Origin: Shigella phage vB_SboM_Phaginator
DNA length: 64,000 bases
Reading direction: 5' to 3' (one strand)
Sequence record: OL615012
Below are positions 36,837 to 38,242 of the stretch, piece after piece. Under the pieces are notes generated by a model. It did no database searches, was not told where the DNA came from, and worked only from the letters and a program-made list of their open reading frames with translations. Both the position numbers and the translations under genes were made by a program. Positions within the stretch are counted from its first letter, which is position 1, and the number at the start of each line of letters is the position of its first letter.

Positions 36837-36912
36837 TGGTCGAGGCAGTAGGGATCGAACCTACGACCTAGGACTTAGAAGGTCCTTGCTCTTCCTTCTG
36901 AGCTATGCCTCG
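36837..36912 (-). tRNA. tRNA-Arg (anticodon TCT)
   Basis: Manual cloverleaf: acceptor CGAGGCA/TGCCTCG, anticodon loop CTTCTAA, T-arm GTAGG-TTCGATC-CCTAC, encoded CCA. Confidence 0.8.
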
Positions 36913-36916
36913 TATT

Positions 36917-36991
36917 TGGCGGACGTGATAGGATTCGAACCTATAACCAATCGCTTAACAGGCGATCGCTCTGCCATTGAGCTACACATCC
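36917..36991 (-). tRNA. tRNA-Asn (anticodon GTT)
   Basis: Manual cloverleaf: acceptor GGATGTG/CACGTCC (one G-U), anticodon stem ATCGC/GCGAT, loop CTGTTAA, T-arm ATAGG-TTCGAAT-CCTAT, encoded CCA. Confidence 0.7.
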
Positions 36992-36995
36992 AAAT

Positions 36996-37082
36996 TGGTG
37001 GGGAGTGATGGAGTCGAACCACCCGAGTCGCAATGACAATGGATTTACAGTCCACACCGCTACCTCTACGGGATAACTCCCC
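36996..37082 (-). tRNA. tRNA-Tyr (anticodon GTA), long variable arm
   Basis: Manual cloverleaf: acceptor GGGGAGT/ACTCCCC, anticodon loop CTGTAAA, variable stem-loop, T-arm GGTGG-TTCGACT-CCATC, encoded CCA. Confidence 0.7.
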
Positions 37083-37094
37083 TAATTCATAATT

Positions 37095-37169
37095 TGGTGG
37101 CCCTGGGTGGAATTGAACCACCATCTGGCGATTATGAGTCGCTTGCTTGAACCTTCCAGCTACAGGGCC
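37095..37169 (-). tRNA. tRNA with CAT anticodon (Ile2-type or elongator Met)
   Basis: Manual cloverleaf: acceptor GGCCCTG/CAGGGCC, anticodon loop CTCATAA, T-arm GGTGG-TTCAATT-CCACC, encoded CCA. Confidence 0.7.
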
Positions 37170-37170
37170 T

Positions 37171-37246
37171 TGGTGCTGATTGACGGAATCGAACCGCCGA
37201 CCTTCTCATTACAAGTGAGTTGCTCTACCTACTGAGCTAAATCAGC
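37171..37246 (-). tRNA. tRNA-Thr (anticodon TGT)
   Basis: Manual cloverleaf: acceptor GCTGATT/AATCAGC, D-arm GCTC...GAGC, anticodon loop CTTGTAA, T-arm GGCGG-TTCGATT-CCGTC, encoded CCA. Confidence 0.8.
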
Positions 37247-37251
37247 AAAAC

Positions 37252-37341
37252 TGGCGGAGGCGATAGGATTTGAACCTATGAGTCGCCGGAGCGACTGCCG
37301 GTTTTCAAGACCGGTGCATTAAACCACTCTGCCACGCCTCC
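37252..37341 (-). tRNA. tRNA-Ser (anticodon TGA), long variable arm
   Basis: Manual cloverleaf: acceptor GGAGGCG/CGCCTCC, anticodon stem CCGGT/ACCGG, loop CTTGAAA, T-arm ATAGG-TTCAAAT-CCTAT, encoded CCA. Confidence 0.8.
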
Positions 37342-37345
37342 AAAT

Positions 37346-37353
37346 ATTTATAT
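37346..37353 (-). promoter_or_regulatory. Late promoter (TATAAATA) abutting tRNA-Ser
   Basis: Minus-strand TATAAATA; predicted start falls at or next to the tRNA-Ser 5-prime end (37341); overlaps segB stop. Confidence 0.5.
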
Positions 37354-37998
37354 ATTGTTAATTTGATTTAGAATTCTTTTTGCTTGAGTATGACTTACGC
37401 CAATATGCTTAGCATATTTAGACAATTCGCCACGTTTAGAAAAATCATATAATTTAGAAATTTCTATTCTTCTTTTTCTTTCATCCGCAGAAACTTTTGC
37501 TTCGTTTGCTTTTGCTATTTTACGTTTAGCTTCTTGAGAATGAGTTTTACCAGCAAAGCCATTCTTCATTAATCCATTTGAAGACCATCCTTTTAATTTT
37601 CCGTTAGAATGTGCCTTTTTAACACCCAATGAAATTAATTCGCGTTGCTGATCTGTCATAGGATAATTATTTATATGATCCCATCCACCTTCACCTCCAA
37701 GTTTTAAATTATACACATCTGGTCTATTTAAAAACTCTTCTGTGACAATATTTTTCTCGGCTTCAAGCATAGATTCTTTATCGTCAAAATACTCTAATAT
37801 TTCTTTAGAAAAATTTTCTATACCATATTTATCTTGGGCTCTTTTTAATAATTTACCAGAACCCATATATCCATCATCTAAATTTTCGGTAGAATGCACA
37901 CCAATATAAATTTTATTATTAATTTTATTTGTTATTTTATAAAGATAAAAATGCATATCAGTCCCTAATAAAGAACTGAGCGTCTCACGACGAGTCAT
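37348..37998 (-). CDS. segB: GIY-YIG homing endonuclease (SegB-like) embedded in the tRNA cluster
   Basis: 216 aa; N-terminal FYLYKITNKINNKIYIGVHS (GIY-YIG-type motif); sits between two tRNA subclusters as segB does in T4. Confidence 0.8.
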   Translation of the reverse strand: MTRRETLSSLLGTDMHFYLYKITNKINNKIYIGVHSTENLDDGYMGSGKLLKRAQDKYGIENFSKEILEYFDDKESMLEAEKNIVTEEFLNRPDVYNLKLGGEGGWDHINNYPMTDQQRELISLGVKKAHSNGKLKGWSSNGLMKNGFAGKTHSQEAKRKIAKANEAKVSADERKRRIEISKLYDFSKRGELSKYAKHIGVSHTQAKRILNQINNI

Positions 37999-38002
37999 AA
38001 AT

Positions 38003-38076
38003 TGGAGCGGATAATGAGAATCGAACTCACATCATCAGATTGGAAGTCTGAGGTAATACCATTATACGATATCCGC
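38003..38076 (-). tRNA. tRNA-Gly (anticodon TCC)
   Basis: Manual cloverleaf: acceptor GCGGATA/TATCCGC, anticodon stem TCAGA/TCTGA, loop CTTCCAA, T-arm GTGAG-TTCGATT-CTCAT, encoded CCA. Confidence 0.8.
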
Positions 38077-38081
38077 AAATT

Positions 38082-38168
38082 TGGTGCGAGAAGTGGGACT
38101 CGAACCCACAAGGAAATCATTCCGCAGCATTTTAAGTGCTGTGCCTTTACCAATTTGACCATTCTCGC
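38082..38168 (-). tRNA. tRNA-Leu (anticodon TAA), long variable arm
   Basis: Manual cloverleaf: acceptor GCGAGAA/TTCTCGC, anticodon stem CAGCA/TGCTG, loop CTTAAAA, T-arm GTGGG-TTCGAGT-CCCAC, encoded CCA. Confidence 0.8.
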
Positions 38169-38169
38169 G

Positions 38170-38242
38170 CTGGGAATAAAGGACTCGAACCTTTGCATCC
38201 TGGAATCAAAATCCAGTGCCTTACCAACTTGGCTAATTCCCA
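38170..38242 (-). tRNA. tRNA-Gln (anticodon TTG), CCA not encoded
   Basis: Manual cloverleaf: acceptor TGGGAAT/ATTCCCA, anticodon stem CTGGA/TCCAG, loop TTTTGAT, T-arm AAAGG-TTCGAGT-CCTTT; 1-nt spacer to tRNA-Leu (dimeric precursor as in T4 Gln-Leu). Confidence 0.8.

What the first reader, a model, noticed from the sequence alone, without database searches (positions are those of the whole stretch)
36837..38242. tRNA repertoire differs from T4: Tyr(GTA) and Asn(GTT) present, Pro not found
Manual folding gives nine tRNAs in two subclusters split by the segB-like gene: Gln-Leu-Gly, then Ser-Thr-CAT(Ile2/Met)-Tyr-Asn-Arg, followed by tRNA-like stable RNAs. T4 carries Gln, Leu, Gly, Pro, Ser, Thr, Ile, Arg. 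Gaining Tyr and Asn and lacking Pro implies a different codon-supplementation strategy and tRNA gene turnover next to a homing endonuclease.
Basis: partly seen in the sequence, partly recalled or inferred. Interest (0 to 1): 0.45.

Follow-up and report, generated by a model that had tools for sequence, protein, structure and literature searches.

The report
T-even phage tRNA cluster, endonuclease-remodelled
The nine tRNA genes are real, but this exact set is already annotated in many T4-like phages, and it differs from T4 mainly because selfish homing-endonuclease genes have overwritten different tRNA genes in different phages.

Summary
Observation confirmed. ARAGORN and Rfam find exactly nine tRNAs on the minus strand: Gln-Leu-Gly | GIY-YIG endonuclease | Ser-Thr-CAU-Tyr-Asn-Arg, followed by rnaD and rnaC homologs. 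No tRNA-Pro trace exists anywhere in the 64 kb.

The set is not new. The window is a Tequatrovirus 99.3% identical to phage JLBYU24. The same nine-tRNA arrangement was annotated in RB51 (NC_012635), with Tyr and Asn noted there as conserved in RB14. AR1 and RB18 have it plus tRNA-His. Tyr+Asn occur together in about 446 GenBank phage records.

Phage GiZh (same species as JLBYU24) has all ten tRNAs and no endonuclease. The window equals GiZh except that an 81-nt spacer plus tRNA-Pro is replaced by a 655-nt endonuclease cassette. T4 instead carries segB where Tyr-Asn sit here; published work shows T4 SegB cuts inside tRNA-Asn and erases Met/Tyr/Asn/Arg. So T4 most likely lost Tyr/Asn, and this phage lost Pro.

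The "segB-like" gene matches T4 SegB only in the catalytic domain (92/96 aa). Its DNA-binding half is unrelated to SegB, and it occupies a different slot. A full-length homolog occupies the same post-tRNA-Gly slot in a Jiaodavirus.

Tyr and Asn rank first and third among amino acids over-used versus the host sample. A near-identical T6 tRNA-Tyr counters Septu.

The parts
38169..38242 (-). tRNA-Gln(UUG). This allele differs from the T4/T2/T6 allele at 8 positions, all in the anticodon arm.
   Evidence: (67.4 bits)
38082..38168 (-). tRNA-Leu(UAA), identical to T4's
38003..38076 (-). tRNA-Gly(UCC), identical to T4's. It forms the left border of the endonuclease cassette.
37343..37997 (-). 655-nt endonuclease cassette (seg') that replaces the 81-nt spacer plus tRNA-Pro of phage GiZh
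   Evidence: The alignment with GiZh has flanks that are essentially identical. A homologous cassette, including the leader, lies after tRNA-Gly in Raoultella phage M12a.
37958..37979 (-). Hairpin covering the AGGGA ribosome-binding site just upstream of the ATG at 37956
   Evidence: -11.7 kcal/mol, z -2.55. T4 segB has an analogous hairpin of unrelated sequence (PMC2988022).
37348..37956 (-). seg' ORF, 202 aa from the ATG at 37956. The mechanical ORF call extends to 37998 (216 aa), but that upstream ATG is GTG in the M12a homolog.
37668..37942 (-). GIY-YIG catalytic block, 99.3% identical in DNA to T4 segB (92/96 aa). The YIG residues Y17 and G19 are retained.
37348..37667 (-). C-terminal NUMOD3 plus HTH-like DNA-binding half. 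It is unrelated to the T4 SegB C-terminus and 62/102 identical to the M12a endonuclease.
37252..37341 (-). tRNA-Ser(UGA), the right border of the cassette
37171..37246 (-). tRNA-Thr(UGU)
37095..37169 (-). CAU tRNA, best read as the AUA-reading tRNA-Ile2. It is the T2-type allele (75/75), only 47/75 identical to T4 tRNA-Ile.
36996..37082 (-). tRNA-Tyr(GUA), class II with a long variable arm and a weak D-stem (C.C mismatch). It is 85/87 identical to T6 tRNA-Tyr.
   Evidence: (30.2 bits); PMC13096335
36917..36991 (-). tRNA-Asn(GUU), 75/75 identical to T2's. The T2L tRNA-Asn gene holds the preferred T4 SegB cleavage site.
   Evidence: (74.1 bits); PMC2330249
36837..36912 (-). tRNA-Arg(UCU), T2-type allele (75/76), only 49/76 identical to T4's
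36718..36832 (-). rnaD (species 2 stable RNA) homolog
36571..36709 (-). rnaC (species 1 stable RNA) homolog with a tRNA-like T-arm
36497..36520 (-). Intrinsic-terminator-like hairpin plus T-run at the end of the RNA cluster

Best explanation
This is the standard tRNA/stable-RNA transcription unit of a T-even (Tequatrovirus) phage, in a form already catalogued (RB51, with Tyr and Asn noted there as conserved in RB14; AR1 and RB18 add His).

The likely baseline is an endonuclease-free ten-tRNA cluster: Gln-Leu-Gly-Pro-Ser-Thr-Ile2-Tyr-Asn-Arg-rnaD-rnaC, as in phage GiZh. Free-standing GIY-YIG homing endonuclease genes have landed in different slots of this cluster, and each one overwrote tRNA genes.
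- Here, a 655-nt cassette sits immediately after tRNA-Gly and has replaced tRNA-Pro. That is why Pro is missing.
- In T4 and T6, segB sits between Ile/Tyr and Arg and has replaced Asn (and Tyr in T4). It also brought different Ile and Arg alleles.

The endonuclease here is not a positional ortholog of segB. It belongs to a lineage whose full-length homolog occupies the same post-Gly slot in a Jiaodavirus. It shares with T4 SegB only a near-identical catalytic domain, presumably through recent recombination, and it has a different NUMOD3/HTH DNA-binding half. It presumably targets the Gly-Pro region of endonuclease-free phages.

Functionally, the tRNAs supply codons and amino acids that the AT-rich phage over-uses (AGA, AUA, UUA, GGA, Tyr, Asn). 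At least tRNA-Tyr, and possibly tRNA-Thr(UGU), can also buffer the phage against host defences that destroy the host's tRNAs.

Shown here: the anatomy, the breakpoints, the population counts and the usage figures. Inferred: the polarity of loss, the endonuclease's activity and target, and the anti-defence benefit in this particular phage.
For: - Nine tRNAs are found by two methods.
- The region is 99.3% identical to JLBYU24, and the same nine tRNAs are annotated in JLBYU24 and RB51, and in AR1 and RB18 together with His.
- The GiZh alignment shows the only difference is spacer plus tRNA-Pro against the 655-nt cassette.
- Block structure against T4: Gln-Gly 96.3%, seg N-terminal block 99.3%, Ser-Thr 95.3%, Arg(3' part)-rnaD-rnaC 89.4%. 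The breakpoints lie inside the CAU and Arg tRNAs.
- The CAU, Tyr, Asn and Arg alleles equal T2's.
- T4 SegB cuts preferentially in T2L tRNA-Asn, and homing erases Met/Tyr/Asn/Arg (PMC2330249).
- Domain split: against T4 SegB, N 92/96 and C 23/100. Against the M12a endonuclease, N 70/96 and C 62/102, with a homologous leader and the same left junction after tRNA-Gly.
- Counts in GenBank phages: Tyr+Asn 446, Gly-Pro-Ser junction 440, seg' 56, Ser plus segB C-terminus 108, both endonucleases together 0 of 195.
- Usage relative to the E. coli sample: Tyr x1.75, Asn x1.64, Pro x0.73, AGA x9.4, AUA x5.1.
- T6 tRNA-Tyr (85/87 identical) is expressed and rescues infection from Septu when over-expressed (PMC13096335). 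Phage tRNA-Thr(UGU) suppresses P2-OLD toxicity (PMC12445682).
Against: - The polarity (ten-tRNA form ancestral) rests on parsimony and on one experimental cross. No phylogeny was built.
- The activity and target of seg' are untested. The Jiaodavirus homolog keeps tRNA-Pro, so loss of Pro is not an obligatory consequence of insertion.
- The population counts come from composite BLAST queries with an 80% coverage threshold and include redundant records, so they are approximate.
- The amino-acid comparison uses one 50-kb E. coli sample and mechanically chosen ORFs.
- The published T6 data show its tRNA-Tyr is itself cleaved by Septu and protects only when abundant, so a single copy here may give little protection.
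Confidence: 0.85

Rival explanations
1. One reading: the repertoire reflects a distinct, selected codon-supplementation strategy. Tyr and Asn tRNAs were acquired because this phage needs them, and Pro was dropped because it does not.
For: Tyr (x1.75) and Asn (x1.64) rank first and third among amino acids enriched over the E. coli sample, and Pro is depleted (x0.73).
Against: - The T4 sample has similarly elevated Tyr and Asn (3.9% and 5.0%) yet lacks these tRNAs.
- GiZh, of the same species as the nearest relative and essentially identical across the cluster, keeps Pro.
- Every difference from T4 coincides with an endonuclease cassette boundary.
- CCA and CCU, the codons read by tRNA-Pro(UGG), are still over-used (x1.55 and x2.6).
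Confidence: 0.12
2. The Tyr-Asn (plus His in AR1 and RB18) and Thr(UGU) genes are kept mainly as counter-defence decoys or replacements against host tRNA-cleaving immune systems, not for codon supply.
For: - Septu and retron-Eco7 PtuAB cleave host tRNA-Tyr. T6 tRNA-Tyr (85/87 identical to this one) rescues infection when abundant, and T4, which lacks it, cannot escape (PMC13096335, PMC11555353).
- Phage tRNA-Thr(UGU) suppresses P2-OLD toxicity (PMC12445682).
- This tRNA-Tyr is 95.6% identical in unrelated rV5-like phages.
- Tyr, Asn and His all have GUN anticodons.
Against: - T6 tRNA-Tyr is itself cleaved by Septu and works only after amplification.
- No defence system specific for tRNA-Asn turned up in the papers read.
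- Supply and demand alone already predict Tyr and Asn.
- This explanation concerns function, not the origin of the difference from T4, so it complements the best explanation.
Confidence: 0.35
3. The Tyr call is a pseudogene or false positive, so the repertoire is really eight tRNAs.
For: The Rfam tRNA score is only 30.2 bits against a cut-off of 29. The D-stem has a C.C mismatch, and the minimum-free-energy fold is not a cloverleaf (z -0.91).
Against: - ARAGORN calls it. Acceptor, anticodon, variable and T arms all pair when the sequence is read by hand.
- The D-arm sequence is unchanged in T2, T6, RB51 and AR1, and the whole gene is 85-87/87 identical. It is 80-96% identical in rV5-, T5- and FelixO1-like phages.
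- tRNAscan-SE calls it in RB51 and AR1.
- T6's copy is detected by northern blot and is biologically active (PMC13096335).
Confidence: 0.04

Closest known systems
Phage RB51 tRNA region (NC_012635), and the other GenBank records that share the endonuclease variant (e.g. JLBYU24, slur07)
   Same: RB51 and JLBYU24 show the identical order Gln-Leu-Gly-endonuclease-Ser-Thr-Ile(CAU)-Tyr-Asn-Arg and the same endonuclease variant. The region is 97-99% identical in DNA across the closest records.
   Different: Only point differences in Tyr (1 nt), and different Asn and Arg alleles in RB51. AR1 and RB18 add tRNA-His and an extra ORF.
Phage T4 tRNA region with segB
   Same: Same genomic location, the same Gln-Leu-Gly and Ser-Thr genes, the same rnaD and rnaC, and a GIY-YIG endonuclease inside the cluster with a 99.3% identical catalytic block.
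   Different: T4 has Pro and lacks Tyr and Asn. segB lies between Ile and Arg, not between Gly and Ser. The SegB C-terminal half is unrelated, and the Ile and Arg alleles differ (47/75 and 49/76).
Phage T2/T2L tRNA region (segB-free recipient allele; Brok-Volchanskaya 2008)
   Same: The CAU-Tyr-Asn-Arg block is essentially identical (75/75, 86/87, 75/75, 75/76). It includes the tRNA-Asn gene that holds the preferred T4 SegB site.
   Different: T2 keeps Pro, lacks Thr, has no intact seg gene, and carries an ORF in the Thr slot that resembles only the C-terminal half of seg'.
Phage T6 segB/tRNA-Tyr anti-Septu locus (Chihara 2026)
   Same: tRNA-Tyr is 85/87 identical, and a SegB-type nuclease lies in the same tRNA cluster.
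   Different: In T6, segB is directly adjacent to tRNA-Tyr and has the T4-type C-terminus. T6 lacks Ser, Asn and Pro. Here the nuclease is separated from Tyr by Ser-Thr-Ile2.
Jiaodavirus endonuclease between tRNA-Gly and tRNA-Pro (Raoultella phage vB_Ro_M12a)
   Same: Full-length homolog (61% identity, both domains), a homologous leader, and the same left junction right after tRNA-Gly(UCC).
   Different: tRNA-Pro is retained immediately downstream. The linker carries an extra 18 aa. The catalytic domain is only about 73% identical, whereas the window's is 96% identical to T4 SegB.

Membership tests
T-even (Tequatrovirus) tRNA/stable-RNA cluster | Location between the trna.2-4/internal-protein genes and the e.8 side, starting with Gln-Leu-Gly | tested here: met
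   the upstream sequence and Gln-Leu-Gly are 96.3% identical to T4, and the same neighbours are annotated in JLBYU24
T-even (Tequatrovirus) tRNA/stable-RNA cluster | rnaD and rnaC stable RNAs following tRNA-Arg | tested here: met
   rnaD 100/114 and rnaC 136/139 identical to T4
Canonical tRNA (Rfam RF00005) | Covariance-model score at or above the gathering threshold, and a cloverleaf call by ARAGORN | tested here: met
   all nine pass, with Tyr marginal at 30.2 against 29
tRNA-Ile2 (lysidine-modified CAU, reads AUA) | CAU anticodon with an ileX-type anticodon arm and C4-G69/C5-G68 acceptor pairs. It lacks initiator features: G1-C72 is paired and the anticodon stem has no three consecutive G-C pairs. 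| tested here: met
   the anticodon arm is 15/15 identical to E. coli ileX, and overall identity is 58/76 against 51/77 for metT. That these features are TilS determinants comes from prior knowledge.
tRNA-Ile2 (lysidine-modified CAU, reads AUA) | C34 is actually converted to lysidine and the tRNA is charged with Ile | not testable with these tools
   This needs mass spectrometry or an aminoacylation assay
T4 SegB homing endonuclease | GIY-YIG catalytic domain with intact YIG residues | tested here: met
   PF01541, E 6e-6, 92/96 identical to SegB
T4 SegB homing endonuclease | SegB-type C-terminal DNA-binding half | tested here: not met
   no alignable similarity beyond residue ~110 (23/100 in a forced alignment)
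T4 SegB homing endonuclease | [quoted passage not shown] | tested here: not met
   here it lies between Gly and Ser, in place of Pro
T4 SegB homing endonuclease | Cleavage at tRNA T-psi-C-type sites, preferentially in tRNA-Asn | not testable with these tools
   Biochemical property (PMC2330249)
Free-standing homing endonuclease gene | Presence/absence polymorphism with a clean empty site in a close relative | tested here: met
   (GiZh). 56 records have the cassette and about 440 have the Gly-Pro-Ser junction.
Free-standing homing endonuclease gene | Site-specific cleavage of the empty allele and super-Mendelian inheritance in crosses | not testable with these tools
   Requires enzyme assays and phage crosses
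Post-tRNA-Gly endonuclease lineage (Jiaodavirus M12a type) | Full-length homology of both domains, a homologous leader, and the same left junction | tested here: met
   61% overall identity, and the leader aligns base for base

The most novel reading that the evidence does not exclude
Two GIY-YIG endonucleases share one catalytic domain but carry swapped DNA-binding domains, and they compete for the same tRNA cluster. Each erases a different tRNA gene: seg' removes Pro, and segB removes Asn with or without Tyr. They never co-occur (0 of 195 records). If so, which selfish endonuclease a T-even phage carries decides its tRNA repertoire. Because tRNA-Tyr counters Septu and retron-Eco7, it would also decide the phage's sensitivity to tRNA-targeting immunity. 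A corollary is that seg' is an active enzyme retargeted to the Gly-Pro region by domain exchange.
Probability: 0.3. Interest if true: 0.5.

Novelty: already known. Interest (0 to 1): 0.18.

Why it matters
As a tRNA-repertoire observation it adds nothing new. The same nine genes are in GenBank annotations from RB51 onward, the T2L Met-Tyr-Asn-Arg block was published in 2008, and the anti-Septu role of T-even tRNA-Tyr was published in 2026.

What the region does offer is a clean worked example of how homing endonucleases, and not codon adaptation, set which tRNAs a T-even phage carries. It also points to an uncharacterised endonuclease variant (SegB catalytic domain plus a foreign DNA-binding domain, in the Pro slot). 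That variant could be tested as a natural case of retargeting by domain swap.

Tried and rejected
- The 46-nt leader between tRNA-Gly and the endonuclease ATG as a degenerate 5' half of tRNA-Pro. Rejected: local alignment score 17, reached by 289 of 5000 shuffles, and tRNA-Gln scores the same. The leader is instead homologous to the leader of the Jiaodavirus cassette.
- The endonuclease as SegD-like, as annotated in AR1, JLBYU24 and PEC04. Rejected: only 38% identity to T4 SegD or SegE, confined to the catalytic domain and a NUMOD3 motif.
- An IMG/VR survey with the endonuclease protein. It gave only 8 distant loci (at most 49% identity) and was not useful for architecture.
- Whole-region MAFFT alignment with T4. 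It is misleading because the seg genes align to each other and displace Ser-Thr-Ile. It was replaced by block-wise BLAST.
- PARIS as a tRNA-Asn-targeting system. The published paper mentions only tRNA-Lys. PrrC170 was not rescued by phage tRNA-Asn. No Asn-specific defence was found.
- Weak sub-threshold Rfam hits (Plastid-ycf2, sX4, tRNA-Sec, YrlA). These are tRNA look-alikes on the tRNA genes themselves.
- The composite Pro-Ser plus CAU-Tyr-Asn-Arg query. It over-counts, because Pro is only 16% of the query and the 80% coverage threshold can be met without it. I therefore used 381-56 and 440-108 as two rough estimates (about 325-330) of the endonuclease-free class.
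Full report
**1.

ARAGORN over the whole 64-kb window finds nine tRNA genes and no others.
- Gln(UUG) 38169-38242
- Leu(UAA) 38082-38168
- Gly(UCC) 38003-38076
- Ser(UGA) 37252-37341
- Thr(UGU) 37171-37246
- a CAU tRNA 37095-37169
- Tyr(GUA) 36996-37082
- Asn(GUU) 36917-36991
- Arg(UCU) 36837-36912

Rfam's tRNA model passes its gathering score at the same nine places. Eight score 59-74 bits. Tyr is marginal at 30.2 bits against a cut-off of 29.

A 216-aa ORF with a GIY-YIG domain (37348-37998) lies between Gly and Ser. Downstream of Arg are homologs of T4's tRNA-like stable RNAs: rnaD at 36718-36832 and rnaC at 36571-36709. A terminator-like hairpin follows at 36497-36520.

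T4's own set is confirmed as Gln, Leu, Gly, Pro, Ser, Thr, Ile, Arg. A BLAST of T4 tRNA-Pro against the whole window finds only 10-13-nt T-loop matches, so Pro really is absent.

**2. The weak Tyr call is real.**

Read by hand, the gene has:
- a 7-bp acceptor stem
- a 5-bp anticodon stem with the loop CUGUAAA
- a 3-bp variable-arm stem, as expected for bacterial class II tRNA-Tyr
- a 5-bp T-stem with the loop UUCGACU
- an encoded CCA end

The D-stem has a C.C mismatch. That explains the low covariance score and the non-cloverleaf minimum-energy fold.

The D-arm sequence is unchanged in T2, T6, RB51 and AR1, where the whole gene is 85-87 of 87 identical. tRNAscan-SE annotations in RB51 and AR1 give the same identity. 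T6's copy is detected on northern blots and rescues infection when over-expressed. The authors also note that it is less stable than the host tRNA (PMC13096335), which fits the weak D-arm.

**3. The CAU tRNA is best read as tRNA-Ile2.**

Its anticodon arm (GCGACUCAUAAUCGC) is identical at 15 of 15 positions to E. coli ileX. It has the C4-G69 and C5-G68 acceptor pairs. Overall identity is 58/76 to ileX against 51/77 to elongator metT. G1-C72 is paired and the anticodon stem has no run of three G-C pairs, so it is not an initiator.

AUA is used five times more often in the window's ORFs than in the E. coli sample. Whether C34 is actually modified to lysidine cannot be tested here.

**4. The arrangement is already catalogued.**

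The 2-kb region is 99.3% identical to Escherichia phage JLBYU24 (species Tequatrovirus gizh). It is 97-99% identical to slur07, AR1, RB18, KIT03, ECML-134 and others, and 53 records cover at least 80% of it in one piece.

JLBYU24 and RB51 (NC_012635) carry exactly the same nine annotated tRNAs in the same order. RB51's notes describe Tyr and Asn as conserved in RB14. AR1 and RB18 have the same set plus tRNA-His(GUG) between Asn and Arg.

The Tyr+Asn pair occurs in about 446 GenBank phage records. The Met(CAU)-Tyr-Asn-Arg block of T2L, RB1 and RB3 was described in 2008 (PMC2330249).

**5. What actually distinguishes this cluster from T4.**

In T4 the order is Gln-Leu-Gly-Pro-Ser-Thr-Ile-segB-Arg-rnaD-rnaC. 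The endonuclease gene therefore does not occupy the same slot. In the window it sits where T4 has Pro, and Tyr-Asn sit where T4 has segB.

Block-wise BLAST gives four homologous blocks:

| Block | Identity to T4 |
|---|---|
| Upstream plus Gln-Leu-Gly | 96.3% |
| 275-nt piece of the endonuclease gene | 99.3% |
| Ser-Thr plus the first ~20 nt of the CAU tRNA | 95.3% |
| 3' part of Arg plus rnaD-rnaC | 89.4% |

The breakpoints fall inside tRNA genes. The window's CAU and Arg tRNAs are different alleles from T4's (47/75 and 49/76 identical) but match T2's (75/75 and 75/76). Tyr (86/87) and Asn (75/75) also match T2's.

**6. The empty site.**

Phage GiZh is the type of the species to which the closest relative belongs. 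It has ten tRNAs (Gln-Leu-Gly-Pro-Ser-Thr-Ile-Tyr-Asn-Arg) and no endonuclease.

Aligned with the window, GiZh is essentially identical across the whole cluster. The one exception is that its 81 nt (a 5-nt spacer repeat, tRNA-Pro and one more base) are replaced by a 655-nt cassette at window 37343-37997. 'Pro not found' is therefore a precise replacement of the tRNA-Pro gene by an endonuclease cassette.

Population counts in GenBank phages:

| Feature | Records |
|---|---|
| This cassette | 56 |
| T4-type Gly-Pro-Ser junction | 440 |
| Ser plus the T4-type segB C-terminal half | 108 |
| Both endonuclease variants together | 0 of 195 |

About 325-330 records are endonuclease-free with Pro and Tyr-Asn (381-56, and 440-108). 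These counts are approximate and include redundant records.

**7. The endonuclease is a chimera relative to SegB.**

Against T4 SegB, the first 96 residues after the ATG at 37956 are 92/96 identical, and 99.3% identical in DNA. The rest does not align. Identity to T4 SegD and SegE is only 38%, so the 'segD' labels in some records are not apt.

The C-terminal half has a NUMOD3 motif and an HTH-like end.

A full-length homolog (61% identity; N 70/96, C 62/102) exists in Raoultella phage vB_Ro_M12a, a Jiaodavirus. There it lies immediately after tRNA-Gly(UCC) and has a homologous leader. tRNA-Pro(UGG) is retained directly downstream, and the endonuclease's stop codon lies inside the first 10 nt of that tRNA.

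This lineage is therefore tied to the post-Gly slot in two genera. Only its catalytic domain has been exchanged recently with segB, and the direction of exchange is unknown. RB18's annotators had already noted 'C-terminus divergent'. The papers I read do not discuss this variant.

The upstream ATG at 37998 is GTG in M12a, so the likely start is 37956. That start is preceded by a hairpin that covers the AGGGA ribosome-binding site (-11.7 kcal/mol, z -2.55). T4 segB has an analogous hairpin of unrelated sequence (PMC2988022).

**8. Mechanism.**

*Established for T4 SegB (PMC2330249).* It cuts tRNA genes at sites containing the T-psi-C motif, preferentially in T2L tRNA-Asn. In T4 x T2L crosses, segB is inherited at 94%, with loss of about 1250 bp that encodes Met, Tyr, Asn and Arg. 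The window's Asn gene is identical to T2's.

*Inferred.*
- This phage would be a recipient for segB and would lose Ile2, Tyr, Asn and Arg in a mixed infection with T4.
- The seg' cassette presumably homes into the Gly-Pro region of endonuclease-free phages.
- The polarity follows from this: T4 most likely lost Tyr and Asn, and this phage lost Pro.

The Jiaodavirus case shows that loss of Pro is not obligatory on insertion. The deletion may be a by-product of the insertion event, or it may give immunity to self-cleavage. I cannot tell which.

**9. Codon supplementation versus counter-defence.**

I compared 79 non-overlapping window ORFs (16,945 codons) with 41 annotated E. coli K-12 genes:

| Item | Window relative to E. 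coli sample |
|---|---|
| Tyr | x1.75 (rank 1) |
| Lys | x1.65 (rank 2) |
| Asn | x1.64 (rank 3) |
| Pro | x0.73 |
| AGA | x9.4 |
| AUA | x5.1 |
| GGA | x3.7 |
| UCA | x3.7 |
| ACA | x3.5 |
| UUA | x2.9 |

Supply and demand therefore explain why the shared pool of T-even tRNAs includes Tyr and Asn. They do not explain the difference from T4. A 5,004-residue T4 sample shows similarly elevated Tyr (3.9%) and Asn (5.0%), and GiZh keeps Pro.

Recent work adds a second function for phage tRNAs:
- Septu and retron-Eco7 PtuAB destroy host tRNA-Tyr.
- T6 and T5 tRNA-Tyr restore infection.
- T4, which lacks tRNA-Tyr, cannot escape Septu (PMC13096335, PMC11555353).
- Phage tRNA-Thr(UGU) suppresses P2-OLD toxicity (PMC12445682).

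The window carries both a T6-like tRNA-Tyr and a tRNA-Thr(UGU), so a counter-defence benefit is plausible but untested here. I found no Asn-specific defence system.

**10. Verdict.**

- The repertoire is already known.
- The only modestly new element is explicit evidence that the 'segB-like' gene is a separate post-Gly endonuclease lineage sharing SegB's catalytic module, and that it precisely replaces tRNA-Pro.

Noticed in passing
window 38169-38242 (tRNA-Gln): There are two tRNA-Gln alleles among T-even phages. The window, RB51 and AR1 differ from T4, T2 and T6 at 8 of 74 positions. All eight lie in the anticodon arm: three compensatory stem pairs plus loop positions 32 and 38. The rest of the gene is identical. 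The window allele has the E. coli-like loop UUUUGAU, and T4 has CUUUGAC.
   Followed up: partly
L005 (T6, AP018814) 2643-2717: T6's annotated 'tRNA-Thr' is a hybrid. Its 5' end is that of tRNA-Pro (TCCGTGTAGCTCAG) and its 3' part is that of tRNA-Thr, so the acceptor strands do not match. ARAGORN does not call it. It looks like a deletion between Pro and Thr through the shared TAGCTCAGT sequence, which also removed Ser.
   Followed up: partly
L014 (T2, PV958097) 2805-3206: The 133-aa ORF that sits where T2 lacks tRNA-Thr is a homolog of the C-terminal DNA-binding half of the window's endonuclease (33% over 115 aa, E 1e-15). It has no GIY-YIG domain. It may be a decayed endonuclease in a third slot of the cluster.
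   Followed up: partly
window 35245-36522: A 39-nt terminator-like sequence (AAAAAGCCCCAACC...GGGGCT on the + strand) occurs three times: 35245, 35930 and 36484, the last being the rnaC-side terminator. The copies bracket two ORFs absent from T4 (35289-35855, 188 aa; 35973-36446, 157 aa). These ORFs share only their first 11 residues and about 42 nt around the start. RB51's annotation also notes a flanking 34-bp imperfect repeat. They look like small cassettes inserted by recombination at terminator repeats.
   Followed up: partly
window 36996-37082 (tRNA-Tyr): The tRNA-Tyr gene is 94-96% identical in rV5-like phages (phita32, magaca, rV5_ev146). It is 80-87% identical in T5-like, FelixO1-like and Klebsiella T4-like phages. 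That suggests exchange of this tRNA across unrelated phage families.
   Followed up: no
GenBank phages collection: The two endonuclease variants (the window type in the Pro slot and T4-type segB in the Asn slot) never occur in the same record (0 of 195). From their frequencies, about 6-7 co-occurrences would be expected if they were independent. A double carrier would hold 275-bp direct repeats flanking Ser-Thr-Ile.
   Followed up: partly
window 38329-38844: A 171-aa ORF lies between trna.2 and tRNA-Gln. It has no counterpart at that place in T4 but is present in AR1, RB18, JLBYU24 and T2, and absent from RB51 and GiZh. It is another presence/absence cassette bordering the cluster.
   Followed up: no
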